A stretch of DNA of 59,161 nt from a virus (lineage: Duplodnaviria; Caudoviricetes). The notes beneath the pieces are model-generated. The model saw nothing but the letters and a program-made list of their open reading frames with translations. It had not been told where the DNA came from and ran no database searches. The position numbers were made by a program, and so were the translations under genes. Positions 9,849 through 36,299 of this stretch are shown here, piece after piece. Every line of letters begins with the position of its first letter. The stretch's first letter is position 1. The DNA lies in the IMG/VR virus record IMGVR_UViG_3300033067_001135, positions 1 to 59,161 of that record. One strand, written 5' to 3'.

Positions 9849-9929
9849 CATGGACACCCCGCCCTAGCGGATCCTGCTGGCCCGTTTCCCGTCCGCGCAC
9901 GATCCCCGGTGGGACACCCGCAGCAGGAC
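9849..9929 (+). ncRNA. Structured 5' leader, copy 1 of 3 (GGACACC two-hairpin motif)
   Basis: GGA-CACC-CCGC-ccta-GCGG-A-TCC, then GTCC-GCG-cacga-TCCC-cggt-GGGA-cacc-CGC-agca-GGAC. Same architecture at 17469 and 36212. Confidence 0.7.
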
Positions 9930-9955
9930 ACAAACCGCAGTCGCCGAAGAGTGTC

Positions 9956-10207
9956 ATGGGCAAATCTCCGTCACAGACCGTTATTCAGCAGGCAGCGCCT
10001 GTTCCCGATCCGGCTCCCCCAGTGCAGCCGACGGCATCCGAGGTCGTGCAGGCCGGCATGGACCTTCGCCAGCAGGAAATGCTGAAGAAGGGCATCAAGA
10101 GCACGATCAAGGCGGGCGACACGGGCGGCTTCAAGCCGGCCGGCGGTGGCAAGATGGCAGGCGGCGTCGGCGGCAATCCCTACACCCCGCCGCAGGGCAA
10201 GGTCTGA
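9956..10207 (+). CDS. Small virion-associated protein upstream of the portal
   Basis: MGKSPSQTVIQQAAPVPDPAPP...KKGIKSTI, typical of the small gene preceding podoviral portals. Confidence 0.65.
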   Translation: MGKSPSQTVIQQAAPVPDPAPPVQPTASEVVQAGMDLRQQEMLKKGIKSTIKAGDTGGFKPAGGGKMAGGVGGNPYTPPQGKV

Positions 10208-10383
10208 TGTCGAAGCAGGTCAGATTCCGCGGTGAAACGCTTCAGGCGGTGAAGACCGATCCGTCGCTCCGGCGCTCGGCGGTCCTGCACAAGCATCGCA
10301 GCGGCAACGAGCCCCACGTCGGGGCGAAACAACTGGCGAAGATGCGCGAGCGCGGTCTTCTGCCGAAGGAAGCCAATGGCTGA
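10207..10383 (+). CDS. 58-aa basic hypothetical protein
   Basis: MSKQVRFRGETLQAVK...LLPKEANG*, coupled to both neighbours. Not in the supplied ORF track. Confidence 0.5.
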   Translation: MSKQVRFRGETLQAVKTDPSLRRSAVLHKHRSGNEPHVGAKQLAKMRERGLLPKEANG

Positions 10384-12103
10384 CGCTCTGGCAAAAGAAC
10401 TGATCGACCGCTACCAGGATCTGAAGTCGTCACGCGACTCGCAGTTCCTGCCGACGTGGCAGGATTTGGCGAACTACTTCCTGCCGTCGCAGTCGGCGAT
10501 CAACACGCAGAAGCTGCCTGGCACGGTCAGCGGCTGGACGGATCGCGTGTATGAGACGACGCCGATCCATTGCGGCCAGGTCTTGTCCGCCGGGCAACGC
10601 AACTGGCTGACACCCTCGAACGAAAAATGGTTCGACTACGAGGTTCCCGAATTCCTGTCGGCCGAAGGTCGCGAAGACGACAAGGACGAGGCGTCGCAGT
10701 GGCTGGCGAATGCGACGGAAGTGGCGACGCGCGAACTGGCGCGCTCGAACTTCTACGGGATGATGAACATCGACTACGAGCAGGTCGGCATCTTCGGGAC
10801 CGGCATGGTCATGGCCGAAGAGGGCAAGAAGACGGCGCTCAATTTCCGGCAGTTCAAGCCCTGGTTCCTCGCGATCGAGGAAGACGACGAGGGCGTCGTC
10901 GACACGGTGTTTCGCGAATTCGAACTGACGACGCGCCAGGCCGTGCAGCAGTTCGGCGTCGACGCGCTCGGCGAGCAGATTCGCAAGGCGTGGGCGAACC
11001 CGGCGCAGTTGGCGAAGCGGTGGAAGTTCCTGCACTTCTGCGGGCCGCGCGACGACTCGAAGCGGATCAAGGGACGGATGGACGGTCCGAACAAGCCGGT
11101 CGCGTCGGTGTATATCTCGCTCGACGACACGGTTTGCGTGCAGGTTAGTGGCTACGAGGAAATGCCCTACCTGTGCAGCCGGTTCAAGTCCTGGGGCGCG
11201 CCGACGTGCTGGGGCTACGGGCCGGCCTACCTGACGCTGCCGGCGGCGCGGCAGATCAACTATGTCGAGCAATACACGGACGCGCTGTCCGAGTTGAAGG
11301 CCGTTCCGCGGTTCATTACCCCGGATTCCATCGACGGCGATGTCGACCTGCGACCAGGCGGCGCAACGGTCGTGGCGGCTGACGACATGGTGCGCGGTGC
11401 GGTCCCGAAGGAGTGGATGACGATGGCCGATGAGAAGGCCGCGGTCGACAAGATCGAGGGCAAGAAGCAGCAACTCTACGATGCGTTCTATGTGAACATG
11501 TTCACGATGCTCGAACAGTTGGCCGACAAGAAGATGACGGCCTACGAGATCGCGCAGCGGCTGGCCGAAAAGCTCGAACAGTTCACCCCGATTTTCGACC
11601 GTCGCGTGACGGAGTTCCTGAATCCGCTGCTGCTCCGCATCTTTGGCATCCTGTTTCGCCAGGGCAAGTTTGGGCCCGCTCCGCGCTCGCTGATGGTCCC
11701 GGTCGACGGCGGCAAGGGCCTGGCGCTGGCGATGCCGGTCGTGGCGATCACGAGCCGGATCAGCATGGCGCTGAAGGCGCTTCAGAACCAGGCCATCGTC
11801 AACACGCTGTCGGTCTTGCAGCCGATGGCGCAGCAGCAGCCGGACGTGCTCGACAATTTCGACTTGGACAAGCTGGTCCGCAAGATGTCGCGCAACTACG
11901 GCGTGACGCCGGACCTGATCCGGTCGATGCCGGACGTGAAGAAGATTCGCGAGGCTCGCCAGCAGCAGGCCGCGGCGCAGCAGGCCGCGCAGTTGGCGCA
12001 GTCGATGTCGGTCAGCGCCGACAAGCTCGGGAAGGCCCCGAAGCCGATTCAGGACGCCGTGGTCAGTCAGTTCGTGGGGCATCCGGCCGTCGCGACGGGC
12101 TGA
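10376..12103 (+). CDS. Portal (head-to-tail connector) protein
   Basis: 575 aa. WQDLANYFLP, GIFGTG, SGYEEMPYLCSRF, WGYGPA, MTAYEIAQRLAEKL: motifs of T7/BPP-1-type connectors. Confidence 0.92.
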   Translation: MADALAKELIDRYQDLKSSRDSQFLPTWQDLANYFLPSQSAINTQKLPGTVSGWTDRVYETTPIHCGQVLSAGQRNWLTPSNEKWFDYEVPEFLSAEGREDDKDEASQWLANATEVATRELARSNFYGMMNIDYEQVGIFGTGMVMAEEGKKTALNFRQFKPWFLAIEEDDEGVVDTVFREFELTTRQAVQQFGVDALGEQIRKAWANPAQLAKRWKFLHFCGPRDDSKRIKGRMDGPNKPVASVYISLDDTVCVQVSGYEEMPYLCSRFKSWGAPTCWGYGPAYLTLPAARQINYVEQYTDALSELKAVPRFITPDSIDGDVDLRPGGATVVAADDMVRGAVPKEWMTMADEKAAVDKIEGKKQQLYDAFYVNMFTMLEQLADKKMTAYEIAQRLAEKLEQFTPIFDRRVTEFLNPLLLRIFGILFRQGKFGPAPRSLMVPVDGGKGLALAMPVVAITSRISMALKALQNQAIVNTLSVLQPMAQQQPDVLDNFDLDKLVRKMSRNYGVTPDLIRSMPDVKKIREARQQQAAAQQAAQLAQSMSVSADKLGKAPKPIQDAVVSQFVGHPAVATG

Positions 12104-12150
12104 TTCCGCTTGCTCCGGCGCTTCGCCAGTAGGTATTACCCTACTGACTT

Positions 12151-12985: not shown

Positions 12986-13307
12986 TTCATCTTCCTCGCC
13001 AGCGGCCGACGTGCCGAAGCCTTCGCAGGCGCGGGTGCTGGCGCTGTCATTCCAGGCGGTGTTCGGCCAGCCCGGTCGCAATGCGCGCGGACCGGACCAG
13101 CGACGGGTGCTGGCGCACCTGCGCACCGTCTGCGCGGTCGACACGAACATGTTTCAGTTCACCCCGGGCGTGCCGGCCGATCCGATTGCGGCGGCGCATC
13201 GCGATGGCGCGCGGGCGGTGTTCATGATCATCGAGCGCCAGCTGGCGGCGGCGCGGAAGGACGATGAAGTCGAGAAGCCGAAAATCAGGGTGAAGAAAAA
13301 GGCATGA
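12978..13307 (+). CDS. Bbp19-like head-module protein
   Basis: FQAVFG...RVLAHLRTVC...DPIAAAHRDGARAVFMIIERQL, the usual portal-adjacent small protein. Confidence 0.7.
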   Translation: MSDSSSSPAADVPKPSQARVLALSFQAVFGQPGRNARGPDQRRVLAHLRTVCAVDTNMFQFTPGVPADPIAAAHRDGARAVFMIIERQLAAARKDDEVEKPKIRVKKKA

Positions 13308-13774
13308 GCGAAACCACGACGCTTCCCGTTCCCGAAGAGATCAGCCTGGTCCCGTCGACCGCGGCGATCCTGCGCGAGAAAGCGGCCGACGTGCCGCTGG
13401 ACAAGATCGACGACTTGGTTGTCCCCTACATCTATCCGATGCGCGACATCATGCGCGGCGGACAGGGTATCGGCCTGGCAGCGCCACAGGTCGGCATCGG
13501 GCTGCGCTTCTTCCTCATGGTCGACCAGGCGCGCGGCAAGGTCCATGTCGCGATCAACCCGGTCATTCATCAGCGCCAGGGCCTGCGGATTTCGAAGGAA
13601 GAGGGCTGCCTATCCTTTCCCGGCCGGATCAACTTCGTGCCGCGGTGGCAGAAGATCCTGCTCGAATGGCGCATGACGAACGGCGACAAGCGCGTGATGT
13701 GGTTCACCGGGCGCGACGCGCGCGTGATCCAGCACGAGACCGATCACTTGGACGGCATCTGCATTTTCCAGTAA
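13304..13774 (+). CDS. def: Peptide deformylase (short, no C-terminal helix)
   Basis: All three PDF motifs: GIGLAAPQVG, EGCLSFP, QHETDHLDG. Confidence 0.95.
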   Translation: MSETTTLPVPEEISLVPSTAAILREKAADVPLDKIDDLVVPYIYPMRDIMRGGQGIGLAAPQVGIGLRFFLMVDQARGKVHVAINPVIHQRQGLRISKEEGCLSFPGRINFVPRWQKILLEWRMTNGDKRVMWFTGRDARVIQHETDHLDGICIFQ

Positions 13775-13798
13775 GCGAACCCAAACCCAAATCCGATC

Positions 13799-14709: not shown

Positions 14710-14712
14710 CCC

Positions 14713-17364: not shown

Positions 17365-17386
17365 ACGTCCCTGAATCGCTCTTTCG

Positions 17387-17418
17387 AAGCCGTCCCTCGC
17401 CGGGCGGCTTTTTTGTTT
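17387..17418 (+). terminator. Intrinsic terminator
   Basis: AAGCCGTCC-ctcgcc-GGGCGGCTT followed by TTTTGTTT. Confidence 0.8.
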
Positions 17419-17422
17419 GCGC

Positions 17423-17451
17423 TTGACCGGGGGCGCGCACGACCGCATTTG
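17423..17451 (+). promoter_or_regulatory. sigma70-like promoter of the capsid/tail operon
   Basis: TTGACC-N17-CATTTG right after a terminator. Confidence 0.55.
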
Positions 17452-17468
17452 TCGCGCAGAGAGGATTA

Positions 17469-17557
17469 GGACACCCGCGCATAGCGATCCGGTGTTCTCT
17501 CGGATCAATCACCGTCCGAGTTGCGGCCCCGCTCTGCGGGACACCCGATTGGCGGAC
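17469..17557 (+). ncRNA. Structured 5' leader, copy 2 of 3
   Basis: GGA-CACC-CGC-gcata-GCG-A-TCC, then GTCCG-AGTTG-cggc-CCCGC-tct-GCGGG-acacc-CGATT-gg-CGGAC. Confidence 0.7.
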
Positions 17558-17597
17558 AGTTTGCAACCCGTTTCGGGACTTCCGTCCCCCTTTCCTC

Positions 17598-18503
17598 ATG
17601 TCATCCGGTGTTTTCACCCTCCCGCCGCACTACCAGACGGCGTTCGACAACAACTGGAAGGAGATCATGGCGCAGCAGAAGCAGCATCGCCTCGCCGGTC
17701 TCTACCAGGTCGATTCCAACATTGCCGGGAACCAAAAGCGTTACGACCAGATCGGTTCCCAGTCCTACGCGATGCGCCAGAAGACGGCGCGCGCGCAGAA
17801 GACCGAACCGTCGGACATTCCGACGAGCTTCCGGTGGGTTCGCCCCCGCCCCTACGACAAGACCACCTGGATCGACGAGCACGATTCCATCATGCTCGGC
17901 TCGCTCCCCGACCCGCAATCGCCGACCGCGAAGAATCACGCCATCGCCGTGAATCGTCTCCGCGACATCGTGCTGATCAACGCGGCGCTCGGCACGAACT
18001 ACACGGGCGCGCAGGGCACGACCGCCACGGCGCTCCCGGCCGGCCAGCAGATCGCGGTCAACCTGGGCGGCGGTGCCAACACCGGCCTGACCCTGGCGAA
18101 GCTGATCGCGTCGAGCTACAACCTCGACGTGAACGATGTCGACGAGATGGACCGCGTGTTCGTCTACGCCGCCAAGCAGCTGAACAACCTGCTGGTGAAC
18201 GTCGACCAGGTGAATTCCGTCCTCTACAACGAGGTCCGCGCGCTCTTCAAGGGCCGTGTCGAGGAGTTCATGGGCTTCAAGTTCATCCGCACGCAGCTGC
18301 TGCCGATCACGGCGAACATCCGGTCCTGCTTCTGCTACCAGAAGGAGTTCCTCCAGATGGGCATCGGTGCGGACCTGAAGACGCACATCGACATCCTGCC
18401 TGACCAGTCGCACGCCGTGCAGGTCCGGTCGGTCATCCTTCTCGACGCGACCCGTCTGGAAGAGTCGGGCGTGGTCTCCATCGCCTGCGACGAGTCCGTC
18501 TAA
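17598..18503 (+). CDS. Major capsid protein
   Basis: 301 aa after the scaffold. QQKQHRL, RYDQIG, GLTLAKLI, QLNNLL, L.KG.VEEFMGFKFIRT, ATRLEESGVV: pattern of Bbp17-like podoviral capsids. Confidence 0.88.
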   Translation: MSSGVFTLPPHYQTAFDNNWKEIMAQQKQHRLAGLYQVDSNIAGNQKRYDQIGSQSYAMRQKTARAQKTEPSDIPTSFRWVRPRPYDKTTWIDEHDSIMLGSLPDPQSPTAKNHAIAVNRLRDIVLINAALGTNYTGAQGTTATALPAGQQIAVNLGGGANTGLTLAKLIASSYNLDVNDVDEMDRVFVYAAKQLNNLLVNVDQVNSVLYNEVRALFKGRVEEFMGFKFIRTQLLPITANIRSCFCYQKEFLQMGIGADLKTHIDILPDQSHAVQVRSVILLDATRLEESGVVSIACDESV

Positions 18504-18542: not shown

Positions 18543-19061
18543 ATGGCTACGCTCTACACGGACATCGCGCAGAATCAGCGCGACGGTCTCAACTTCCCCG
18601 GCGGTCCCGGCGGTCTCACGACCCAGCCCGGCGGGTTCAACGATCCCGTCTTCGAACTCGGCGACTGCTCGATCGTGGTCGCGGTCTACACGATGACCGG
18701 CGCGGAGGCGCAGAATGACGTGATCAACGTCCTGCGTGTCGGCGGCGGTTGCGTCGTGGATCCGGTTCGCTCGAACGTCGCCGGCAACGGCGTCGGCACG
18801 ACGGCCTCGGTCCAGATCGGCGACACGGACACGGCCGGCGGCACGATTGCCGCCAGTCCGACCCGCTACTCCGCTGCCATCGCGGTCAACGCCGACATGT
18901 CGGCCACGACCGGGGTGAGCTTCGCAGGCGGCGCGGCGCTGATCACGCCGTTCGAGACCACCGATGATCCCTGCTGGATCACGGCGACGTTCTCGGTCCT
19001 GACCGTCCCGGTCGTCGGCAAGAAGCTGATCTTCCGCCTGTTCCTGGGCTGGAATCGCTAA
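18543..19061 (+). CDS. Capsid decoration/minor capsid protein
   Basis: Beta-rich ORF directly after the MCP, with AAGGA RBS, followed by a terminator. Confidence 0.7.
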   Translation: MATLYTDIAQNQRDGLNFPGGPGGLTTQPGGFNDPVFELGDCSIVVAVYTMTGAEAQNDVINVLRVGGGCVVDPVRSNVAGNGVGTTASVQIGDTDTAGGTIAASPTRYSAAIAVNADMSATTGVSFAGGAALITPFETTDDPCWITATFSVLTVPVVGKKLIFRLFLGWNR

Positions 19062-19087
19062 AGCTTGGGTTCGTCATAAGTCACAAC

Positions 19088-19132
19088 CCCGGCAGGGAGC
19101 GCGCGAAAGTTCGTTCTCTGCCGGGTTTTTTT
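19088..19132 (+). terminator. Intrinsic terminator inside the virion operon
   Basis: CCCGGCAGGGAGCG...CGTTCTCTGCCGGG followed by T7. Confidence 0.85.
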
Positions 19133-19137
19133 CAGTT

Positions 19138-25681: not shown

Positions 25682-28600
25682 ATGCCCTACGTTCCCGACG
25701 ACAACGAGGCGGCGCTATTGCTCGATTCAGTTGAGGGCGAGCAGGACGCTGGCCGCAAGGCGGTCATGGTCGACCTGTTGGGCCGCTATCGGGATCAGAA
25801 GGCGTCGGCCGGGCTTCAGCCTTTTCAGCCGGACCAGGCGTCGCAGCGCGCCAGTCGCGAACGGCTCGAAGGCATGTTCGGCGGGCTCGACAAGATGGAC
25901 GCCGGGCTGGATCCCGCGCAGAAGTCGGCGTTTGCGACCGCGGTCGACGCGTCGACGGACAAGGATGAGGCGAAGGCGCGCATGGCGAACCAGACCTGGG
26001 TGCTGGCGCAGTATCCGCAACTCGGCGGGGCGGTCGATGCGGACTGGACGACGGTCAAGCATCATGTCGCGAAGGAACTCTTTGGGAACGACGCGCAGGC
26101 CATTCCGGACACGGCGTTCTACGCGCAGATCGGCGGGCACATCAAGAAGCAGAAGGACGAGCGCGACATGCTCGCCGACGTGTTGTCGAAGGTGCAGGTC
26201 GAGGCTGCCAAGGGCACGGGCGACTGGCTCGCTGCCTGGAAGAAGAGCGCGACCGGCATCAGCACGAACGCCGGCTACCAGCCGACGAACTGGGATCGGT
26301 ATCGCCAGGCCGCGAAGAAGGTTTTCGACGACACGCAGCAGTCGATCCAGACGCTCCGTCCTGCGATTGCGGCCGGGCAAGAATACTACCGGCTGGCGAC
26401 GAGCGGGCCGGCGACGCTGCCCGGCAAGAAGGACGACCAGGGCAAGGTCGTGCCGAAGAGTGGTGACGAGATGGACGCTGATTTTCAGCAGGTCGTCACG
26501 GCACGGCAGGCTTTCCTCGGCGAACTGATGCGGTTGCCGGCGGGGCAGCGCGATCAGGCGCTGAACCTCGCGATTGCGGGCGCGGCAGATCTCGCGCCGA
26601 AGACGATGGGTGCGGAAGGGTCGGCCGGCGGGATCGAGAAGACCGCGGTCAGCCTGGAACGCGCCATCGGCAACTTCTTCCCGAATGCCGGCCGGTTCCT
26701 TCTCCAGGGCGTGCGCGCGGCGTCGGAAACCACGCTTCAGGCCAGGAACGCTTATTACGGGGAGGCGGACACCCCACAGCAGTCGGTCTACAACGAGCAG
26801 AACGCGATGCAGCGGACGGACATGTCGGCCGCAATCGACGCCGGCCTGGTCGACGCCGTGGATCCGATCAAGTCGAAGAGCCGGCTGGCGCAGGGTGTCT
26901 ACGACGCGATGCAGTCGATCCCCTACATGATCGCTGCCGGCGCGCAGCCGGAGGTCGGAATCCCGCTGACCTTGGCGGCGATGGCCGAAGACAACCGCCG
27001 GCAGTTCGTGGCGAATGGCGTGCCCCCGCAGGAAGCGGCGACGCTGGCGCTGGCGTCGGCCGTTCCCCAGGTGGCGATCGAGCGGCTTCAGGCGCACATG
27101 CTTTTTCACGGCAAACTGCCGGGCGCGGAGAAGTGGCTGACGAAGGCCGTCGGCTCGAAGCTGCAGCTGGCGACGAAACTCCTGGCGGTCGGCGGGCTCG
27201 AAGCTCTGCACGAAAACGCCGAAGAGGCGCTTCAGGACATTACCCCGCTGGCCTATCAGGAACTGGGGTCGATCCTGTCGAAGGACGTGCCGGACGTGAA
27301 CTGGAAGCAGGAACTGGCGCAGTATGCCGGCCAGCGCGTCGACACGTTCTTCGCACTGCTGCCGATGGTTTTGGTCGGCACGGGCACGGCTTCGTTCAAG
27401 GAATCGGCCTACGGCCGACAATACCTGTCCAGCAAGAACATGCTGAAAGCGGCCGGGTTCACGGATGCCGTGGCCGAAGAGATCTCGCAGACCGCGGTCA
27501 AGGGCGATGTCGAGAAGGCGCAGGCGATGGTGCAATCCGGGTGGGAGGATCCGGAGCAGCGGCCGAAGGCGCAGGTCGAGAAGGACACGGCCGCGGCGAA
27601 GGCCGATGTCGAGGCGGTCGGCAAGTTCAACACGGAAGAGCAGCAGCGCGCGTTCGACGAACTGGACGCGCAGATGAAGGCATCCTGGAACGAGCAAGCG
27701 AACCCGACGGGCGCGCGCGCGATCAAGAACGAGGACGGCACATGGACGGTCGTCGATTCGAAGGATCAGTATGTCGACCAGGCGAATTCCCCGGAGCACG
27801 CGGTCGACCTTGTGAACGAGGTCAATCGGGCCGACTCGGCGAGCCTGACGAATGTCGTCGACGACATGATCGACTATTTTAAGCAGCGCGGCCGGGGCGG
27901 CGAGATCGTCAAGACAGGCGACATCCGGACCGTGCAGGATACGGTGGATGAAGGGCAAATGGCGCAGGACAAGGCGCATCAGTTGGTCAATCTCTACGTC
28001 GAACTGGGCGTCCTGCCGAAGGGCACGACGACGCAGGAAGCGCGCATCTACGGCGAAAGCGCCAAGGTCTACAACGCTCGGCAGAAGGTGTTCGAATACG
28101 TCAGCCGGCTGCACGACGGCGCGGATCCGCTCGTCCTGGTCGAGGAAGAGGCCGAAGGGTATTTCAAGCAGTCGCTGGATAACGGCCTGTTCTCAATCGA
28201 GGATGTCGAGAACTGGCGCGCGGCGGTCGAGGGAAAGCCGGTGCAGCCGAAGGCCGACAAGCAGATGCGGGCCCGGGAGGCGACGGAATGGTTCTCGCGC
28301 TACGCGCAGGCGTATATCACGGGCAAGACGCAGGCGGACGCGCCGGTCCCGCTGACCTTCCGGCGTTGGCTGGACAAGGTGAAGAAGGTCTTCGCGGAGA
28401 TCTTCACGCTCGCGCGCGACCTGATCGAAAAGGAGAAGGCCGGGCAGTTGCCGGACGACTTCAAGAAGCATCTGGCGCGGGCCGTCGGCCTGGACGAGAC
28501 GTTCATCGAAGACCGGATGCGCCAGGAAGAGCGCCAGCAGGCGGCGAAGAGCGCGTCGGGCAACTGGCGCGCGGCCGAAGCACTCCAGGAGATCAAACTT

Positions 28601-31600
28601 CCGACGCCGGGCCGGGAGCAGGCCGGCATGAGTGGCGAACTGCAAAACCTCTGGACGAGCCTGAAGTTCGACCAGCGGATGAAGCTATTCGCGGCGCACG
28701 ACAAATCGCTGGATGCGGTCGCCGAACTGCTGCGCGAGGATTACGGCTTCAGTTGGGTGCAGGGGCCTGACGACGTGGTGAAGCTGGCCGAAGACACGTT
28801 CCTGCACGGGAAGGAGATCACGAGTGATCGGTCGTTCTCGCTTCGCAAAACCCCGGCGATCAAAGGAACGGTTTCCTCGTTCGAAGACAGCGAGACCGGG
28901 AAGACGTTCACGACCGGAAAGCCGGTGGAATTCAATTTCGTCCGCAATCCGGTGAAAGCCCCGAACATGGGCAGTCGCTTCGGCCAGGACATCGAGCCGG
29001 CCGGCAAATACGTTTCCCCGATTTCAAAGGAGACGGCGGTTCTCGACGGCCTGGAATCGGGGACCATTGCCTTCAAAAGCCCGCTTGTCCTGGAATGGAG
29101 TGGCTACGGGTCGGATGGCTGGAAGGCGCGACTGTCCGCGGCCTACGGTGGGAAGACGGGCGCTGCGCTGTCGAAAGCCATCGTTGCATCCGGATATGAT
29201 GGGGTCGTCACGCAGTCGGAGGTCCGCGGGCAAAAGTATGCGTCCGAAGTGGTCGACCTGCGTGGATTCGTGGAAGGCGATCTTCCTGAAGTCACGATGG
29301 CCGTGCGCAAGGGCGACCAGACCGGCGACCTTTTTGACCAGGGCGACATGCCTTTCAACCTGTCCGGCGAGGCGGCGCAGGATCACACGGGCGCGATGGA
29401 CCGGAAGGCCGAAGCGGACCAGGCGAAGTCGAAGGCGACGGCCGCGCAGCAACTGATCGACGACCGGGCCGAATACGACCGCCTGCAGGCCGAACTGAAT
29501 AAGCTCGGGCCGGAGAAGTTCGGCACGCCGGAGTATAACGCGGTCTGGCAGAAGTCCGAAGACATCAAGAACCGGCATGGCGGGATGCCGCCGGGCGAGC
29601 AGGTCGGGGGATCGACCTACGCGGTCCGGCAGACGGAGCGTCCGGAATTCAAGAAGTGGTTCGGCGACTCGAAGGTTGTCGACGAAAAGGGCAATCCTTT
29701 GGTCGTCTATCACGGTTCGCCTGAAGCGACGTTTTCCGAGTTCCGCGGGAGCGAGGCCGAAAAGGGCGGTCTGTTCTTCACGGACAGTCCGGCCGTCGCG
29801 GAGGGCTATCACGCGAATCGCGGCGCGTGGATGTCGCCGGGCAAGGCGTCCGGGACGTTCCCGGTCTACCTGTCGTTGCAGAATCCGCTGGTGATCGACG
29901 CGCTCGGCAAGCGGCACGACAACATCCCGGTTCCGTGGCAGCCGTGGCAGCAGAAGGTCTTCGGCCGGCTGCCGAAGAACGCGGTGAACGTGCGCGATGC
30001 GCTGGTCTACGCGCGCGAGCACGGGCATGACGGGGTGATCGTGAAGAATGTTCACGACACGGCAGATCAGTATGAGCAAGGGAAGTCGACGGTCTATGGC
30101 GTCGTGAAGCCGACGCAGATCAAGTCGGCGATTGCGAACCGCGGCGTCTTTGATCCGAACAATCCGGACATTACTTATTCGCTGAAGACGACTTGGAACG
30201 AGGCGCACGGCGCGAGCGGGGACCGCGAAGGCGTCCTGGGCACGGTCAGCGCCAGCGGCAACGTCGTCGCGAAGCGTGGTGATCTCTACGAGGCCAGTCA
30301 TGCGTCGATGGGTCTCTACACGCGCAACGGCGTGCCGTGGCGTTACAGCAAAAAGACGCAGGCGGTCTACTGGTGGGGGAACGCTGATGAAGTGCAGCGC
30401 GAGAACGTCACGGCTCGTCTCATGAAGATGGGCTACGAGGTGAAGGCGCAGAAGATGATCAGCGACGCCAGCACGCCGGAGTTCCGGGAGTCGCACGAAA
30501 GTCGGCGGCCGTCCGCGCTGACGGTCGACGGGCATGGCGACGAGTGGATCGTCCGGGACGCCGACACGGGTTCCGGGGTGCATCCGGCTTTCAAGACCGA
30601 AGCGGAGGCGAAGGCATGGATGAACGAGAACTGGGATCGCCTGGTCGAGCCGTCGGAACCGGACACGTTTGCGCTGCGCCGGCAGACGGAGACGCCGGAG
30701 TTCAAAGCCTGGTTTGGGGATTCGAAGGTCGTCGACGAGGCCGGGCAACCGAAGGTTCTTTATCATGGGACCGGCGCGAAGGATTACGCGTGGGATGACA
30801 ACGGCCGGCGTGTTCCTGTGAATTTTCCGTTCACGAAGTTCGACAAGGACATGCCAGGGTCGAAGACGGACGAAGGGTATTTGGGTCGCGGGTTCTACTT
30901 TTCGGATCGGCCGGACATCGCCGGCTGGTATGGGAACATGACGACGAGCGAATCCGAGGCGGCGATGAAGCAGGCCGGCGATCAACCCTGGGGGGTGCAT
31001 CCGAAGATGAAGGGCAGCGCAATCGGTGCGTTCTTCCTTAGCCTGAGAAATCCCCTGGTGATAGAAGAGGCGGGGCAGAACGAATCTGCGTTCGACAAGC
31101 GGCGCGACATGCAGGCGGCGCTCGGTCTGGATCCCGGCGCGAACTGGGATGTGAATTATCTCACGTTCAAGTTGAAGGATGCCGGGTATGACGGGGTGAT
31201 TTATCGCTTCAAGAAAGGAGGCATGGAGGCGGTGGCTTTTGAGCCGGAGCAGATCAAGAGCGCGACGGGCAACCGCGGGACGTTCGACGCCAGCAATCCG
31301 GATATTACCTTCGCGCTGCGGCCGGCTGCGAACGGCGACCTGATCGCGGTTCACAACACGAACGCCGAAAAACTGAAACTGATCGACGAACTGGGCGGGC
31401 TGGCCGTCCCGTCGGTGGCGATCATCAAGCACGGCACGTCGGAATACGACTCGTTCGGCGACATCACGCTGATTGCGCCGAAGAGTCTGGTCGACCCGAA
31501 GAAGTCGGCGAAGGCCAAGGTGTTCAACACGGACATCTATTCGCCCCGCTTCCCGAACACGCGGTTCGATGTGAGCCTGCCGAACCTGCGGAAGGCGTGG

Positions 31601-34600
31601 AAGGATTTGGGCGACGCGAGCGAAGCGATTGGCGTCGGCAGTCTTTCGTCGGAAATCGACCATGACGAGGTTGAGCGCGAGGGGCTGGACGCTTTCGAGA
31701 AGGCGACGGCCGTGAAGTATGCTTTCCTGAAGGAACAGGGCCAGGTTCCGGACCTGAAGAACAAGCCGACGGAGACGCCGAAGGAGTGGGCCGCGGCGTG
31801 GGCCCGGGCTAAGACGAAATGGGAACTGGCGGACGATCCGGCTTTCCAGCAGGCGGCGCTCGAACACTTCAAAGAGGTTTACAAGGATCACCCCGATCTC
31901 TTGGCGGATATGGTCGACGAGGAAGGCAAACTGATGTCGAACCCGATCAATCGGTTCGCCGACGATGTGTTCACGACGAACAATCCGGAGGTCGACCGCT
32001 ACAGTTCGGGCCAGGCGATGAGTGATCAGATCAACAACCTCGGGCTGCGCGCCAAGTTCGAGTCCTGGGTGAAGTCGCGGTTTAGCGACGTGATCAAGCG
32101 CAAGGTGATTCGCGACTACAACGAGCGGACGGAGAAATGGGCGACGCGTCCCTACGATCTCGACACGGTGGTCAGCATCATGAAGCGGGGCCTTCAGGAT
32201 TCCGAAGGGTTCGACTACGGCGGCGCGTCCATCCGGGCGAACTACGCGCAGCAGTTTTCGTCCTTGGCTGAGATGAAGGATCTGGCGGGCTCGATCGTGT
32301 CCGACGAGGACATCAAGCGGCTGAAGGAACAGACGAACGACGAGTTCAACAGCCTGGCGACCGAACTCGCGCCATACTATCGGTTCGACACGAAACGCTT
32401 CGGGTATCTTGACCAGGTTGCGTCGGCGATGAAGCGGTTGGGCAAGTTCAACGGCGAAAAGCTGTGGGCTGAAGACTTCAAGCCGGTGCCGGCGGAACTG
32501 ATGGGCAAGGTCCGGGCGTTCCTCGCGATGCTCCGCGACGCGCCTACGGAGTATTTCGAGGCGAAGGTGCAGCGCGGCGTGAAGTTGTCCGAGATTGCCG
32601 GCGCGGTGATCCCCAGTGATTCGACGGAGGACGTGCGCGACATCCTCGCGCGCGCGGGCGTGCCGGTGGTCGAATACAAGCGTTCCGACCTGAAGGCGCG
32701 GGCGGCGGCCGTGGCGAATTTCGGCGACGAGTCGTGGGCGTTGGGGACCGGCAAGCGGGCGGAAGACGTGCAGGACGCGATGCGCGAGCGGAAGATCGGC
32801 ATCCGGGTGCAGGATTCGCCTGACTTCGCGCAGGAAGTGAAGGACATGGTGGGCCGGCCGGAATACGCCGTCCGCGGGATGACCGTGAACGAGCGCGAGG
32901 CGAAGAAGATCATCGCCGAACATGACGGCAACCTGGCGAAGCTCGTCCAGGTGCTCGCTGATCCGACGCAGACCTTTCATCCGGCGACGAAGGTCGCGCT
33001 GGCGTTCTTCGTGGCTGAGTCGGCGAACAAGGTGGGCGATTTCGCGACGGCCGCGGAAGTCGCCAAGCAGGCGGCGATGGAGGCGACGAGCCTGGGCCAG
33101 GGCGTCAACGAATTGAAGCGGTGGTCGATCTTCTCGCAGCCGGAGACGGCGCAGCAACTTCTCCAGGGCGAGATCGAAAAGGAGAACAACCGGCGCAAAG
33201 AGCGCGAGCCGGCGATCAAGGCCGTGCAGGACGTTTACGCCGAAGTGCAGCGGGAGGCGCGCAAACTCCTCCGGCAGTGGCTGGACGAGATCAACGGTGT
33301 CGCTGGCAAGGACGCCGCGGAGATCGAGCCGGTCGACGTATCTTCGCTTCCGGATGTGACGTTCGCGCTCCGGGCGGACGTTCGCGAGTCGGGCATCGTG
33401 CAGGTCGTGGCGAAGATGCTGAAGAAGAGCGGCGCGGAGGCGACGGAGAGGGCGCTGGTCGAGAAATACGGCCAGGCGGTCGAGGCGCACATCCCGGACA
33501 TCCTGATCGAAGCGCAGCGCAGCCTGATGAAGCGCGACGGCAAGGGTGAAAAGAAGTTCAAGACCCGGATCCCGGTCCTGTCCGACGAGCAGATCGAACA
33601 CACCCTGCGGTCGACGCGTGGGAAGGTCGAAGAGCAGGCGACGATGCCGACGGTCGAGGAACTGAAGGCGAAGGGCATGTCCGACGACCAGGTTGAAGAG
33701 ACGCTTCGCCAGTTCCGGAATCGCCAGGAATCGCAGGCCGACCTGATCCCGAAGGACGAGCCGGCCGGCGGCCGGCTGACGCCGGAGCAGATCGACGCTG
33801 CCATGCAGGCCGCTGCCAAGGGTGGCGCGCAGGGAGCGCAGACGTTCGCCGATATGCCGGAACTCTACGACCGGCTGTTCGAACACCTAATGCTGCGGAT
33901 CAAAGAGAAGGTCGAGGGCGAGCAAAACGTCCCGGTCCCGCGTGGCATCAAAGAGCAGATCGGCGAGATCCTGAATCGGCACGGCCTGAAGGCGACGGAG
34001 GACGACGTGAAGCGGATCATCGGCGCGCGCCAGTTGCTGCCGAACATGACGCCAGCGCAGGCCGAAGACCTGGCGAATTTCGCGCGCCGGATCGCCAGCA
34101 CGCCGCTCGGCTCGTTCGAGCGCGGGCAGCAGACGATGGAACTCTTCAGCTACGTTCACGACCAGCTTCAGCCCTACGATCTTGTCGATGTGGCGTTCGG
34201 GCTTTGGTATGCGAACGTCCTGTCGTCCCTGCTGACGACGGCTAGGAACGTCGCCGGCAACGCGTCGATGCTCTTCCTGGACCAGGCGGCTGAAACCCTC
34301 TTCCGCAATCCGGCCAGCTATTTCCCGTATATCGAGCAACTGGCGAAGGCGACGGGCGAAAGCATCGAGGCGTCGACCAGCCAAGGGAAGAACACGATGA
34401 AGACCGGCCAGGAAGGGCTGACGCGCAGCCTGTCGCTGGGCGACGAGCGCCGGCAGGGCGTCCTGGAGTCGAAAACCGCCCCGTTGCAGACGATGCGCTT
34501 GATCAGCCGGGTGGCGACGCGCTTCCTTTCGGTGCAGGATCTGTTCTTCGCGAACACGGCCTACGAGATGAAGGCGCGGCAACTGGCCTGGGATCAGGCA

Positions 34601-36154
34601 CGCAAAGAGGCCGGCACGGGCAAGATCAAGCCGGAGCAGGTCGAGGAACGCGTGTCGCGGTTACTCAACCAGGCGACGGACCAGATCCAGACGTTCACCG
34701 ATCGGGCCCGGGTGGAGTGGCAGAATCTGACGCCGGAGATCAGGGCGAACTACGACGAAGCCAACTGGCAGAAGCGTCGGGTTAAGGAATTGCAGATGTT
34801 CGAGCGCGACAAGCAGTTGGTCAGCCGGTCGCTGGATTTCGCGCAGAAGGTCACGCTCGACTACGAGCCGGAGGGCCTGATGGGGCTGCTGCTCGGCGGG
34901 TTGAGCCGCGTCTTCACGACGGCCGAAAACGCCGCGGCGCAGGTGCAGAACCCGAAGGTCAAGATGCTGACGAAGGCGGCGGCGAAGTATGGCCGGACCA
35001 GGGTGATCCCGTTCATGCGCGTGCCGGTCAACGTCTTCAACCGGGCGCTGGACTACGGGCCGGTCGGCTACGGCCGCGCGCTGATGGACGCCGCGGGCAT
35101 CCCGGTGATCCAAGGCACGAAGACGCGCGTCCGCACGGCCGACGAGCGGGCGGACCTGTTGAAGCGGGCGACGCTCGGCACGATGGCGCTGCTGCCGCTG
35201 GCGATCCTCGCCCGGCCGCCGTCGCCGGACGACGAACCGGAGGAATTTCCCTGGTTGCAGATTCACAGCGCCGGATCCGGGAACCCGAACACGAACATCG
35301 CGCTCAACGGGCCGAAGTATCGCCCCTACTCGATTGAGATCCGGGCCGGCGGCAACCAGACGTTCATCGACTACCGGATGTTTCCGCTCGCCCCCTACCT
35401 GGCAGCAATCGGGTCGCTGCACGACCGCACGCGTTACAAGAAGGCGATGGACGACAAGTCGGCGCTCGTGCAGGGCTGGATCATCGCGCAGGCGATGAAA
35501 GAGAGTTTCATGTCGAGTTCGCCGATCACGTCGCTGCGGGAGTTGAGCGAAGCCGCGGCCGAAAACCAGCCGATGTCGGAGCGGTCGGTGAACCGCACGC
35601 TGGCGCGCGGGTCGGTCGGCATCGCCGGCAACCTGATCCCGCTGTCCGGCCTGTGGCGGTCGCTCGACCAGCTTGCGGGCGGGGACCGGAACACGCGCGA
35701 CACGCTGCTGGCCGCGTCGATGGCGGAAATCCCGGTCGCGGGCCGGCTGAACGTGCCGTCGGTCGATGTCCTGGGCGACAACATGTCGTCGCGCGCGGGG
35801 ATCGGCTGGCTCGCCGACTGGTCGAAGCGAGAGACGCCGGAGTCGCGCATCTACGCAGCCTTTGCGGAGAAGGACGTGACGCCGACGGACATCTCGCGCT
35901 ACCAGTCGAAGATGACGCCGGAAGAGTATTACGCATTCGCGCAGGCGCGCGGGAAACTGCTGAAGGAGACCCTGCTGTCGCCGAACGAGGAAGGGCAGTT
36001 GGGCCTGGATCACCTGCTCGAACTGAGCGACAAGGCGAAGACGAAGGACGAGGATTCTCCCGCGAAGAAATACCTGATGCGGATCAGCCGCTCGGCGACG
36101 CGGCGGGCGCTTGTGCAGGTCGGCGCGAAGGTGCCGGCGGAAGTCGAGCCGTGA
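25682..36154 (+). CDS. Giant (3490 aa) ejection/polyvalent protein with several ADP-ribosyltransferase-like domains
   Basis: gp16 position. Two (E/T)xPEFKxWFGDSKVVDExGxPxVxYHG...G.(F/Y)F(T/S)D...LxNPLVI...G(H/Y)DGVI...QIKSA..NRG.FD domains, a third related domain at 28847-29290, a degenerate zincin-like segment, and a C-terminal PFMRVPVN...RPYSI region. Confidence 0.85.
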   Translation: MPYVPDDNEAALLLDSVEGEQDAGRKAVMVDLLGRYRDQKASAGLQPFQPDQASQRASRERLEGMFGGLDKMDAGLDPAQKSAFATAVDASTDKDEAKARMANQTWVLAQYPQLGGAVDADWTTVKHHVAKELFGNDAQAIPDTAFYAQIGGHIKKQKDERDMLADVLSKVQVEAAKGTGDWLAAWKKSATGISTNAGYQPTNWDRYRQAAKKVFDDTQQSIQTLRPAIAAGQEYYRLATSGPATLPGKKDDQGKVVPKSGDEMDADFQQVVTARQAFLGELMRLPAGQRDQALNLAIAGAADLAPKTMGAEGSAGGIEKTAVSLERAIGNFFPNAGRFLLQGVRAASETTLQARNAYYGEADTPQQSVYNEQNAMQRTDMSAAIDAGLVDAVDPIKSKSRLAQGVYDAMQSIPYMIAAGAQPEVGIPLTLAAMAEDNRRQFVANGVPPQEAATLALASAVPQVAIERLQAHMLFHGKLPGAEKWLTKAVGSKLQLATKLLAVGGLEALHENAEEALQDITPLAYQELGSILSKDVPDVNWKQELAQYAGQRVDTFFALLPMVLVGTGTASFKESAYGRQYLSSKNMLKAAGFTDAVAEEISQTAVKGDVEKAQAMVQSGWEDPEQRPKAQVEKDTAAAKADVEAVGKFNTEEQQRAFDELDAQMKASWNEQANPTGARAIKNEDGTWTVVDSKDQYVDQANSPEHAVDLVNEVNRADSASLTNVVDDMIDYFKQRGRGGEIVKTGDIRTVQDTVDEGQMAQDKAHQLVNLYVELGVLPKGTTTQEARIYGESAKVYNARQKVFEYVSRLHDGADPLVLVEEEAEGYFKQSLDNGLFSIEDVENWRAAVEGKPVQPKADKQMRAREATEWFSRYAQAYITGKTQADAPVPLTFRRWLDKVKKVFAEIFTLARDLIEKEKAGQLPDDFKKHLARAVGLDETFIEDRMRQEERQQAAKSASGNWRAAEALQEIKLPTPGREQAGMSGELQNLWTSLKFDQRMKLFAAHDKSLDAVAELLREDYGFSWVQGPDDVVKLAEDTFLHGKEITSDRSFSLRKTPAIKGTVSSFEDSETGKTFTTGKPVEFNFVRNPVKAPNMGSRFGQDIEPAGKYVSPISKETAVLDGLESGTIAFKSPLVLEWSGYGSDGWKARLSAAYGGKTGAALSKAIVASGYDGVVTQSEVRGQKYASEVVDLRGFVEGDLPEVTMAVRKGDQTGDLFDQGDMPFNLSGEAAQDHTGAMDRKAEADQAKSKATAAQQLIDDRAEYDRLQAELNKLGPEKFGTPEYNAVWQKSEDIKNRHGGMPPGEQVGGSTYAVRQTERPEFKKWFGDSKVVDEKGNPLVVYHGSPEATFSEFRGSEAEKGGLFFTDSPAVAEGYHANRGAWMSPGKASGTFPVYLSLQNPLVIDALGKRHDNIPVPWQPWQQKVFGRLPKNAVNVRDALVYAREHGHDGVIVKNVHDTADQYEQGKSTVYGVVKPTQIKSAIANRGVFDPNNPDITYSLKTTWNEAHGASGDREGVLGTVSASGNVVAKRGDLYEASHASMGLYTRNGVPWRYSKKTQAVYWWGNADEVQRENVTARLMKMGYEVKAQKMISDASTPEFRESHESRRPSALTVDGHGDEWIVRDADTGSGVHPAFKTEAEAKAWMNENWDRLVEPSEPDTFALRRQTETPEFKAWFGDSKVVDEAGQPKVLYHGTGAKDYAWDDNGRRVPVNFPFTKFDKDMPGSKTDEGYLGRGFYFSDRPDIAGWYGNMTTSESEAAMKQAGDQPWGVHPKMKGSAIGAFFLSLRNPLVIEEAGQNESAFDKRRDMQAALGLDPGANWDVNYLTFKLKDAGYDGVIYRFKKGGMEAVAFEPEQIKSATGNRGTFDASNPDITFALRPAANGDLIAVHNTNAEKLKLIDELGGLAVPSVAIIKHGTSEYDSFGDITLIAPKSLVDPKKSAKAKVFNTDIYSPRFPNTRFDVSLPNLRKAWKDLGDASEAIGVGSLSSEIDHDEVEREGLDAFEKATAVKYAFLKEQGQVPDLKNKPTETPKEWAAAWARAKTKWELADDPAFQQAALEHFKEVYKDHPDLLADMVDEEGKLMSNPINRFADDVFTTNNPEVDRYSSGQAMSDQINNLGLRAKFESWVKSRFSDVIKRKVIRDYNERTEKWATRPYDLDTVVSIMKRGLQDSEGFDYGGASIRANYAQQFSSLAEMKDLAGSIVSDEDIKRLKEQTNDEFNSLATELAPYYRFDTKRFGYLDQVASAMKRLGKFNGEKLWAEDFKPVPAELMGKVRAFLAMLRDAPTEYFEAKVQRGVKLSEIAGAVIPSDSTEDVRDILARAGVPVVEYKRSDLKARAAAVANFGDESWALGTGKRAEDVQDAMRERKIGIRVQDSPDFAQEVKDMVGRPEYAVRGMTVNEREAKKIIAEHDGNLAKLVQVLADPTQTFHPATKVALAFFVAESANKVGDFATAAEVAKQAAMEATSLGQGVNELKRWSIFSQPETAQQLLQGEIEKENNRRKEREPAIKAVQDVYAEVQREARKLLRQWLDEINGVAGKDAAEIEPVDVSSLPDVTFALRADVRESGIVQVVAKMLKKSGAEATERALVEKYGQAVEAHIPDILIEAQRSLMKRDGKGEKKFKTRIPVLSDEQIEHTLRSTRGKVEEQATMPTVEELKAKGMSDDQVEETLRQFRNRQESQADLIPKDEPAGGRLTPEQIDAAMQAAAKGGAQGAQTFADMPELYDRLFEHLMLRIKEKVEGEQNVPVPRGIKEQIGEILNRHGLKATEDDVKRIIGARQLLPNMTPAQAEDLANFARRIASTPLGSFERGQQTMELFSYVHDQLQPYDLVDVAFGLWYANVLSSLLTTARNVAGNASMLFLDQAAETLFRNPASYFPYIEQLAKATGESIEASTSQGKNTMKTGQEGLTRSLSLGDERRQGVLESKTAPLQTMRLISRVATRFLSVQDLFFANTAYEMKARQLAWDQARKEAGTGKIKPEQVEERVSRLLNQATDQIQTFTDRARVEWQNLTPEIRANYDEANWQKRRVKELQMFERDKQLVSRSLDFAQKVTLDYEPEGLMGLLLGGLSRVFTTAENAAAQVQNPKVKMLTKAAAKYGRTRVIPFMRVPVNVFNRALDYGPVGYGRALMDAAGIPVIQGTKTRVRTADERADLLKRATLGTMALLPLAILARPPSPDDEPEEFPWLQIHSAGSGNPNTNIALNGPKYRPYSIEIRAGGNQTFIDYRMFPLAPYLAAIGSLHDRTRYKKAMDDKSALVQGWIIAQAMKESFMSSSPITSLRELSEAAAENQPMSERSVNRTLARGSVGIAGNLIPLSGLWRSLDQLAGGDRNTRDTLLAASMAEIPVAGRLNVPSVDVLGDNMSSRAGIGWLADWSKRETPESRIYAAFAEKDVTPTDISRYQSKMTPEEYYAFAQARGKLLKETLLSPNEEGQLGLDHLLELSDKAKTKDEDSPAKKYLMRISRSATRRALVQVGAKVPAEVEP

Positions 36155-36171
36155 CCGGATGGGGTTTTGGC

Positions 36172-36201
36172 TTGCCTGACGATACGGTGATCACCTACTC
36201 C
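36172..36201 (+). promoter_or_regulatory. sigma70-like promoter of the tail-fibre/lysis operon
   Basis: TTGCCT-N18-TACTCC after the giant gene. Confidence 0.45.
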
Positions 36202-36211
36202 TTCGCACAGA

Positions 36212-36299
36212 GCACTGGACACCCCGCCTAGCGGATCCAGCGCCTGGTCAGGTCAAAGTCCCCGGTCGATCTGCGAGCGCAGACACCCGTGCGGCGGAC
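36212..36299 (+). ncRNA. Structured 5' leader, copy 3 of 3
   Basis: CTGGA-CACC-CCGC-cta-GCGG-A-TCCAG, then GTCC-c-CGG-tcga-TCTGC-gagc-GCAGA-cac-CCG-tgcggc-GGAC. Confidence 0.7.

What the first reader, a model, noticed from the sequence alone, without database searches (positions are those of the whole stretch)
9849..36299. A covarying two-hairpin RNA leader heads all three virion operons (put-like antiterminator?)
Seen: three copies (9849-9929, 17469-17557, 36212-36299), each with GGACACC 43-46 nt after a TTG -35 box, i.e. near the transcript 5' end. Hairpin A is GGA-[CACC bulge]-stem-loop-[A]-UCC. Hairpin B is closed by GUCC...GGAC and contains a second GACACCCG after an inner stem. The inner stems differ in sequence but keep pairing (UCCC/GGGA, CCCGC/GCGGG, UCUGC/GCAGA), which is compensatory variation. 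The copies precede the portal, capsid-tail and fibre-lysis operons, and a strong terminator (19088-19132) lies inside the 18-kb capsid operon. Known: HK022 put RNAs are two-stem nascent leaders that make RNA polymerase termination-resistant; CAC/A asymmetric loops resemble C-loops. Inference: a late-gene RNA switch I do not recognise, acting by antitermination or protein binding.
Basis: partly seen in the sequence, partly recalled or inferred. Interest (0 to 1): 0.8.

Follow-up and report, generated by a model that had tools for sequence, protein, structure and literature searches.

The report
Conserved structured leader RNA of phage virion genes
Three virion operons of this uncultured phage begin with the same folded ~90-base RNA leader, and the copy before the capsid gene belongs to an undescribed RNA family kept throughout a clade of related phages; what it does is untested.

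Summary
The window, a 98%-complete 59-kb podovirus record, holds exactly three + strand copies (9850-9931, 17467-17558, 36215-36300), each 43-46 nt after a TTG -35-like box.

A covariance model built without copies 1 and 3 ranks them second and third in the window. The capsid copy belongs to a leader family found before the major capsid gene in 72 of 80 related loci (40 distinct sequences), and its helices covary. No Rfam family matches, and the model finds nothing in HK022.

Five relatives of about 40 kb have one copy each, at the capsid gene. They lack the window's sigma and KH genes where searched.

The RNA has two like modules, each a helix with a 4-nt A/C-rich bulge. The closing helix of module 2 competes with an upstream strand in most capsid leaders.

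My best reading is a cis-acting two-state leader that sets translation or stability of virion mRNAs. Put-like antitermination stays possible but is disfavoured by the conserved terminators. Function is inferred, not shown.

The parts
9809..9814 (+). TTGACA, -35-like box of copy 1
   Evidence: Unchanged in a ~90%-identical relative whose spacer has 5 substitutions.
9850..9931 (+). Leader copy 1, before an 83-aa ORF (9956-10207), a 58-aa ORF and the portal gene (10376-12103). GGA 9852-54 pairs with UCC 9872-74. Bulge CACC 9855-58. P2 9859-62/9867-70. M GUCC 9891-94. P4 UCCC 9903-06/GGGA 9911-14. Bulge CACC 9915-18. D GGAC 9926-29. Alternative closing helix CCUGCUG 9873-79/CAGCAGG 9921-27.
   Evidence: R1 23.5 bits, E 7e-4, and it was not in the training set. 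In a ~90%-identical contig, 6 changes fall in this copy and none in a helix.
17386..17414 (+). Intrinsic terminator that ends the portal/scaffold block, just before the capsid promoter
   Evidence: 10-pair stem plus T run. A run of 4 or more T before the -35 box occurs in 18 of 38 distinct family members.
17424..17429 (+). TTGACC, -35-like box of copy 2
   Evidence: A TTG[AC]N box lies 43-55 nt before the motif in 38 of 40 distinct leaders.
17467..17558 (+). Leader copy 2, before the major capsid gene (17598-18503). GGA 17469-71 pairs with UCC 17488-90. Bulge CACC 17472-75. P2 17476-78/17484-86. U CUCGGA 17499-504. M 17514-20. P4 CCCGC 17528-32/GCGGG 17536-40. Bulge ACACC 17541-45. D CGGAC 17553-57.
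   Evidence: R1 51.8 bits. Member of the capsid-leader family. U:M and M:D helices.
19087..19133 (+). Strong intrinsic terminator after the capsid gene and the next gene (18543-19061). The next ORF starts at 19138 with no room for a promoter.
   Evidence: An equivalent terminator, followed directly by the next gene, is seen in G001, G002 and G005.
36171..36176 (+). TTGCCT, weak -35-like box of copy 3
   Evidence: No comparative support.
36215..36300 (+). Leader copy 3, between the 3490-aa gene (ends 36154) and the tail-fibre gene (36329-38116). GGA 36217-19 pairs with UCC 36236-38. Bulge CACC 36220-23. P2 36224-27/36231-34. M GUCCCCG 36258-64. P4 UCUGC 36270-74/GCAGA 36279-83. Bulge CACC 36284-87. 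D CGGCGGAC 36292-99.
   Evidence: R1 16.4 bits, E 0.03, third-best hit and not in the training set. No relatives of this junction were found.

Best explanation
The three sites are copies of a structured 5' leader RNA of about 85-95 nt. It is probably made by host RNA polymerase from TTGAC-type promoters and starts roughly 10 nt after the transcription start.

The RNA has two like modules. Each is a helix interrupted by a 4-nt A/C-rich bulge (GGA-YAMC-C on one strand, G-A-YCC on the other).
- Module 1 is capped by hairpin P2.
- Module 2 is capped by hairpin P4 and closed by a long-range helix between segments M and D.

In most capsid leaders an upstream strand U is also complementary to M, so the RNA has two mutually exclusive folds, U:M and M:D.

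I propose a cis-acting regulatory leader that sets the yield of virion proteins after initiation. A trans factor (protein or small ligand, unknown) binds the twin bulged modules and stabilises the M:D fold. That fold leaves the start region more open, or the mRNA more stable. The U:M fold is the default, less productive state.

Shown: the copies, the family, the helices, the competing complementarity and the conserved genomic setting.
Inferred: transcription start, the factor, and the effect on translation or stability.
For: Family:
- 72 of 80 related loci match R1.
- Of the 8 misses, 3 (L125, L158, L164) hold under 70 nt of upstream sequence, L172 holds 117 nt with a cut leader, and 4 (L163, L166, L168, L179) carry a visibly diverged version.

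Structure:
- On a MAFFT alignment not fitted to the structure, 78.2% of cells pair against 69.1% in shuffles, 0 of 500 shuffles reach that, and 10 of 16 pairs change on both sides.
- On the model-fitted alignment of 40 distinct rows, 83.7% pair against 68.8%, and 12 of 16 pairs change on both sides. P2 is 89% paired (4 of 4 pairs covary) and M:D is 90.5% paired (4 of 5 covary).
- The G-U pairs in these helices fit only the + strand.

Switch:
- In 40 distinct leaders the mean best U:M score is 6.2 and the mean best M:D score is 5.6. Shuffled partners give 3.8 and 3.7 (maxima 4.2 and 4.0). Partners taken from other M classes give 4.7 and 4.3.
- M:D is present in all 40. U:M is weak or absent in copy 1, L021 and L150. 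Copy 3 was not in that alignment and shows no U strand by eye.
- With U:M enforced the fold is more stable in 38 of 39 leaders (mean -48.1 against -40.5 kcal/mol).
- The -18..+10 start region is more open with M:D enforced in 20 of 39, more open with U:M in 1 of 39, and within 0.05 in 18.

Setting:
- The -35 box keeps a narrow distance to the motif.
- The motif ends 26-56 nt before the start codon in 39 leaders.
- The order terminator, promoter, leader, capsid, next gene, terminator is conserved.
- Only the structural module is shared with relatives.
- No T7-type RNA polymerase was found, but that search had no positive control.
Against: - No expression data exist. No RNA run was listed, so the transcription start is inferred.
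- The accessibility difference is small (mean unpaired 0.50 against 0.56) and comes from nearest-neighbour folding under forced constraints.
- Single-sequence folds are not unusually stable.
- No binding factor is identified. The only RNA-binding candidate in the window (KH protein, 53812-54393) is absent from the 4 relatives searched.
- Copies 1 and 3 lack the competing U strand, so in them there would be no switch.
- Nearly all genes of this phage lack a Shine-Dalgarno sequence, so I cannot point to a ribosome-binding site that is masked.
- Helix alpha-1 is only 2-3 bp long.
Confidence: 0.4

Rival explanations
1. Put-like processive antiterminator. The nascent leader folds on and stays bound to host RNA polymerase, without protein factors. 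The polymerase then reads through the terminator after the capsid cassette and transcribes the promoter-less tail genes.
For: - Position and form resemble putL: promoter-proximal, two irregular stem-loop modules with bulges, several copies at operon heads (passages of PMC9378689).
- In the window and in G001, G002 and G005 the genes after the terminator have no room for their own promoter, so they depend on read-through.
- The nearly fixed distance from the -35 box would suit co-transcriptional folding on the polymerase.
Against: - No similarity to HK022: R1 gives only 4 noise hits (E above 2) in the whole genome.
- All transcription that reaches the conserved terminator after the capsid cassette comes from the leader-linked promoter, because an upstream terminator blocks other transcripts. 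A constitutive antiterminator would make that conserved terminator useless. An efficient terminator instead gives the expected excess of capsid over tail proteins.
- Copy 1's block ends at a strong terminator (17386-17414).
- The U:M/M:D competition has no counterpart in the put passages I read.
Confidence: 0.2
2. Constitutive 5' stabiliser or translation enhancer. The folded leader protects the 5' end of the most abundant late mRNAs from RNases, or helps ribosome loading in a host that does not use Shine-Dalgarno sites. There is no switch and no specific ligand.
For: - It sits at the extreme 5' end of the capsid mRNA, the most highly needed product.
- The cassette is closed by a 3' terminator hairpin.
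- Genes lack Shine-Dalgarno sequences.
Against: - A generic protective hairpin would not need two copies of a conserved bulged module. The bulge and flanks are nearly invariant.
- It would not need a conserved third strand that competes for M.
Confidence: 0.2
3. Self-cleaving ribozyme or RNase processing site that creates a defined 5' end for the virion mRNAs.
For: Two conserved internal loops that could dock. Conserved unpaired nucleotides. Phage and metagenome setting. All of this is inference only.
Against: No match to any Rfam ribozyme family even at permissive thresholds. No candidate cleavage site is identified.
Confidence: 0.05
4. DNA-level element (operator for a DNA-binding regulator) or a chance repeat.
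For: The GACACCC word occurs twice per copy on one strand.
Against: - Compensatory changes and G-U pairs fit an RNA of the + strand.
- The spacing of the two words varies (60, 70 and 65 nt), out of helical phase.
- The model-based ranking excludes chance.
Confidence: 0.03

Closest known systems
HK022 put RNAs (putL, putR)
   Same: - Cis-acting nascent leader just downstream of a promoter.
- About 70-90 nt.
- Two stem-loop parts with bulges.
- More than one copy per genome, at operon heads that contain terminators (passages of PMC9378689).
   Different: - No sequence or structure similarity by covariance model.
- Found on late virion operons of podoviruses, not on early operons of a lambdoid phage.
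- Twin 4-nt A/C bulges.
- A long-range closing helix with a competing strand.
- Activity on RNA polymerase is untested.
Riboswitch-type leaders with tandem similar bulged-stem modules (for example the nadA/NAD+-I motif, recalled from memory)
   Same: Two like modules in a 5' UTR, conserved bulge nucleotides, and mutually exclusive helices that could act as an expression platform.
   Different: - No Rfam riboswitch matches, even at E up to 10 on the capsid copy.
- No metabolic gene context.
- No ligand is known.
Candidate structured RNAs mined from IMG/VR (PMC10690425)
   Same: That survey used intergenic regions of the same collection and reports 5 candidates typically upstream of a major capsid protein family (passages read).
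   Different: I cannot tell whether this motif is among its 8495 unnamed candidates. No function is assigned there.
T7 gene 10 cassette (promoter, leader, capsid gene, T-phi terminator; recalled from memory)
   Same: The capsid gene has its own strong promoter and 5' leader, and a leaky terminator sets the ratio of capsid to downstream tail genes.
   Different: Here transcription uses TTGAC-type promoters and no T7-type polymerase gene was found (no positive control). The leader is a conserved two-module fold.

Membership tests
HK022 put antiterminator RNA | Sequence and structure homology to putL/putR | tested here: not met
   R1 with filters off over the whole HK022 genome gives only 4 hits, at E 2.3-4.9, one of them inside IS903. 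This tests likeness to my model, not a put model. Whether Rfam holds a put family I did not check; no Rfam family of any name matched the window.
HK022 put antiterminator RNA | Promoter-proximal nascent RNA of about 70 nt with two stem-loops | tested here: inconclusive
   The motif is promoter-proximal and has two modules, but it is 82-92 nt in the window and has a long-range helix plus a competitor strand.
HK022 put antiterminator RNA | Suppresses downstream terminators in cis, without protein factors, through the beta-prime zinc-binding domain | not testable with these tools
   Needs in vitro transcription. A terminator does lie downstream.
Any Rfam 15 family | Score at or above the family's gathering threshold | tested here: not met
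   0 hits in the window at gathering thresholds. Only noise at E 0.15 or above on the capsid copy and on 8 relatives.
Riboswitch (generic) | Conserved ligand pocket plus mutually exclusive helices coupled to an expression signal | tested here: inconclusive
   Mutually exclusive U:M and M:D helices are supported. Coupling to the start region is weak. The ligand is unknown.
New capsid-leader RNA family (this report) | Twin bulged modules, P2, P4 and the M:D helix, placed between a TTGAC box and the capsid start codon | tested here: met
   Copy 2 scores 51.8 bits. Copies 1 and 3 share the modules and M:D but sit before other genes and lack U.

The most novel reading that the evidence does not exclude
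The leader is a second, unrelated class of factor-independent RNA that binds bacterial RNA polymerase and makes it terminator-resistant. It would be the first outside lambdoid phages. It would be tuned by an internal U:M/M:D switch, so that only a fraction of polymerases carries capsid-promoter transcription on into the tail genes.
Probability: 0.2. Interest if true: 0.85.

Novelty: new variant of a known kind. Interest (0 to 1): 0.62.

Why it matters
Phages without their own RNA polymerase must still time and dose their virion genes, and how uncultured podoviruses do so is unknown.

This element is kept in every clade member that had enough upstream sequence to judge. It sits exactly where the capsid dose is set, and one phage has copied it to two further virion operons.

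It gives a defined 90-nt object with clear compensatory-mutant designs for testing RNA-based control of late genes. The candidates are a switch, an antiterminator or a stabiliser. Any of them would add a new RNA family to a very short list of characterised phage late-gene leaders.

Tried and rejected
- **Exact-pattern scan of IMG/VR**: 12 loci, one match each. None has the second module and several lie in coding-looking sequence. I treated them as chance.
- **Raw alignment folding:** RNAalifold on the raw MAFFT alignment A2 gave only 3 pairs, so I set the structure by hand.
- **Copies elsewhere in relatives:** a word search for paired motif words in 28 portal loci, plus reading the portal-upstream region of 6 of them, found no copy there. 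Whole-record model searches of 5 relatives found only the capsid copy. Of 5 further handles, 4 were not held and the fifth again had only the capsid copy.
- **Relatives of copy 3's junction:** none found with the C-terminal 499 aa of the 3490-aa protein.
- **Distant cultured or named relatives** (Ralstonia phage RpY1 and two Manatee Spring podoviruses, capsid 28-33% identical): no model hit. Their leaders carry ordinary GGAGG sites.
- **Host:** the genome-contig scan gave one 5-kb contig binned with a Nitrososphaerales MAG and four alphaproteobacterial MAG loci at 33-34% identity. That is not enough to name a host.
- **Expression:** no RNA holder was listed. Contigs of 4 DNA runs were laid. 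Only one relative covered copy 1, and the listing was cut, so variants in copy 2 were not seen.
- **CsrA-type twin GGA sites:** considered and rejected. The first G of module 1 pairs and covaries (G-C in 30, A-U in 9 of 40), so GGA is not conserved as such.
- **Leader masking a Shine-Dalgarno site:** rejected, because almost no gene here has one.
- **Phage KH or sigma as obligatory partner:** rejected for the family.
- **Wider IMG/VR scan with a degenerate two-gap pattern:** not run. My estimate was hundreds of chance hits.
- **Supplements of PMC10690425** were closed. They may already list this motif.
Full report
**What the window is**

The window is a whole virus record of 59,161 bp, estimated 98% complete. 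GC content is 62.7%. The ORFs that match protein families all lie on the + strand.

Family scans give a podovirus-type virion module:
- terminase at 7259-9184
- portal (named head-tail adaptor in PHROGs) at 10376-12103
- major head protein at 17598-18503
- tail protein at 20458-23145
- tail fibre at 36329-38116

Other genes:
- a 3490-aa polyvalent protein at 25682-36154
- a sigma-70-family protein at 51509-52171
- a KhpA-like KH protein at 53812-54393

No T7-type RNA polymerase was found, though that search had no positive control.

**The observation**

GGACACC starts 43, 45 and 46 nt after TTGACA (9809), TTGACC (17424) and TTGCCT (36171).

Each copy reads as follows:
- GGA, CACC, a short stem-loop (P2), A, UCC
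- a variable linker
- a second hairpin (P4) followed by (A)CACCCG
- a distal segment (D) that pairs with a segment (M) upstream of P4

The joint pattern occurs 3 times on the + strand and never on the other strand or in the backwards control.

I built model R1 from 24 capsid-gene leaders of relatives plus copy 2, without copies 1 and 3. R1 ranks the three copies first, second and third in the window at 51.8, 23.5 and 16.4 bits. The next hit scores 12.5 bits and lies inside a helicase gene. There are three copies and no fourth.

**The family**

Searching IMG/VR with the capsid protein gave 60 related loci. The 230 nt before the capsid gene turned out to be conserved in all of them. A scan of metagenome contigs added 64 loci.

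I gave R1 the window and 80 of these loci: 23 distinct viral loci and 57 of the 64 metagenome loci. I left out the 7 whose capsid match starts at query residue 42 or later, within 130 nt of the contig end. R1 matched 72 of the 80 loci, giving 40 distinct aligned sequences once the window's copies 1 and 2 are counted.

The 8 loci without a match split as follows:
- 3 hold under 70 nt of upstream sequence (L125, L158, L164).
- L172 holds 117 nt and shows a cut leader.
- 4 (L163, L166, L168, L179) carry a visibly diverged version, for example GAACACYCC next to each hairpin.

Five relatives of 38-40 kb, two of them rated 100% complete, have exactly one copy each, before the capsid gene. I saw no copy before the portal gene in relatives: a word search covered 28 portal loci and I read 6 of them. 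The closest named phages (Pelagibacter HTVC010P-type, Ralstonia RpY1; capsid about 30-33% identical) are far away. The three named records I tested lack the motif.

**Structure**

On a MAFFT alignment that was not fitted to any structure:
- My 16 pairs are 78.2% paired, against 69.1% in column shuffles (0 of 500 reach it).
- Sliding the partners by one column drops pairing to 54% or less.
- 10 of 16 pairs change on both sides.

On the model-fitted alignment of 40 distinct rows, which leans towards the model's structure:
- Pairing is 83.7% against 68.8%.
- P2 is 89% paired and all 4 of its pairs change on both sides.
- M:D is 90.5% paired and 4 of 5 pairs change on both sides.
- The outer pair of helix alpha-1 switches between G-C (30) and A-U (9).
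- Many G-U pairs occur, which fit only an RNA (or single strand) of the + sense.

Against this, single-sequence folding energies are ordinary (z -1.64, -1.72, +0.10), and RNAalifold on a raw alignment recovered only P4.

Read together, the two halves are the same module seen from two sides. Each is a helix (GGA/UCC) next to a 4-nt A/C-rich bulge (CACC, CAAC or UAAC) that faces zero or one nucleotide, followed by a second helix. That second helix is P2 in module 1. In module 2 it is C-G plus M:D.

**A competing strand**

In most capsid leaders the M segment is complementary both to D and to an upstream segment U.
- In copy 2, U is CUCGGA 17499-504, M is 17514-20 and D is CGGAC 17553-57.
- When M changes (GUUCGA, GUCCGAG, UUCUGAG, UUUCAAG, UGCGAG), both partners follow.
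- Mean best-helix scores are 6.2 (U:M) and 5.6 (M:D). Shuffled partners give 3.8 and 3.7, and partners from other M classes give 4.7 and 4.3.
- M:D is found in all 40 distinct sequences.
- U:M is weak or absent in copy 1, L021 and L150. Copy 3 was not in that alignment and shows no such strand by eye.

The two helices use the same nucleotides of M, so they exclude each other.

By nearest-neighbour energies the U:M fold is the more stable in 38 of 39 leaders. The region around the start codon is more open in the M:D fold in 20 of 39, in the U:M fold in 1 of 39, and about equal in 18. This is a modest effect obtained under forced constraints.

**Setting**

- A TTG[AC]N box lies 43-55 nt before the motif in 38 of 40 distinct leaders, most often 45-47 nt.
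- The -10 regions are poor.
- The motif ends 26-56 nt before the start codon.
- In the window, a terminator (17386-17414) precedes the capsid promoter.
- A strong terminator (19087-19133) follows the capsid gene and one more gene. The next ORF starts 5 nt later.
- The same terminator-then-next-gene arrangement is seen in G001, G002 and G005.
- Only the structural module is shared between the window and these relatives.
- The sigma and KH genes are absent from the four relatives searched.

A contig of a relative about 90% identical carries copy 1 with 6 substitutions:
- two in the P2 loop
- two in the linker
- one in an internal loop
- one in the bulge, at a position that also varies in the family
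- none in a helix

**What it most likely does**

The RNA is conserved, strand-specific, at the 5' end of the capsid message and built to adopt two folds. I favour a cis-acting leader that sets translation or stability of virion mRNAs. An unknown factor would bind the twin bulges and favour the M:D fold. My confidence is about 0.4 for the mechanism and about 0.9 that it is a real structured leader family.

**The put-like rival**

Its position and general form match what is described for putL (passages of PMC9378689), and the tail genes depend on read-through.

Three things count against it:
- R1 finds nothing in HK022.
- All transcripts that reach the conserved terminator after the capsid cassette would carry the leader. 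Constitutive antitermination would make that terminator pointless, whereas an efficient terminator explains the needed excess of capsid over tail proteins.
- Copy 1's own block ends at a strong terminator.

**Novelty**

No Rfam 15 family matches. My full-text search for structured RNA, major capsid protein, covariation and phage returned one paper. That survey of IMG/VR (PMC10690425) lists 8495 unnamed candidates, 5 of them typically upstream of a major capsid family (passages read). Its tables are in supplements I could not open, so the motif may already be catalogued without a function. I found no functional description.

Noticed in passing
window 25682-36154 (+): A single 3490-aa ORF carries an ADP-ribosyltransferase domain of polyvalent proteins (residues 1334-1490, E 2e-40) and a PBECR5 nuclease domain (residues 1885-2031, E 1e-24). 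It sits where podoviruses keep internal or ejected proteins. Only a weak partial relative was seen in G001, and no relative of its C-terminus in IMG/VR.
   Followed up: partly
window 13304-13774 (+): A peptide deformylase gene (PF01327, E 8e-33) lies inside the virion module, between the portal and scaffold-like genes.
   Followed up: no
window 51509-52171 and 53812-54393 (+): The phage encodes a sigma-70-family protein (regions 3-4) and a KhpA/KhpB-type KH protein of 193 aa. Both are absent from the four related phage records searched.
   Followed up: partly
window, about 49 gene starts: Almost no gene has a Shine-Dalgarno sequence. Start codons are preceded by A/C/T-rich tracts such as CCUUUCCUC or AACCCUACC. 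This points to a host that starts translation without one.
   Followed up: partly
window 19138-19617 (+): An endonuclease VII gene (phrog_2633, E 2.5e-37) sits between the terminator after the capsid cassette and the tail tubular gene. In G002 the tail gene homologous to window 19619-20458 comes first after the terminator.
   Followed up: no
window 3474-5165 and 7259-9184 (+): Two ORFs both match terminase large-subunit families. The first matches only over its N-terminal 230 residues.
   Followed up: no
L163, L166, L168 (about 200 nt before the capsid gene): A diverged form of the leader has GAACACYCC instead of GGAYAMCC beside each hairpin. R1 misses it. A broader model should include it.
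   Followed up: partly
family alignment A5, columns 52-60; window 17491-17498: The linker after module 1 is conserved as AUCAC or CUCAC in most capsid leaders, but not in the window's three copies. Its role is unexplained.
   Followed up: no
L118: A 5-kb contig with a capsid gene 61% identical to the window's is binned in a Nitrososphaerales (archaeal) MAG. This is most likely a binning error rather than a host signal.
   Followed up: no
L058, L060, L063, L065, L066, L067, L162, L165, L167, L152 (P2 loop): In one subgroup the P2 loop is enlarged and contains GCCAC. This is a possible tertiary or pseudoknot contact that I did not resolve.
   Followed up: no
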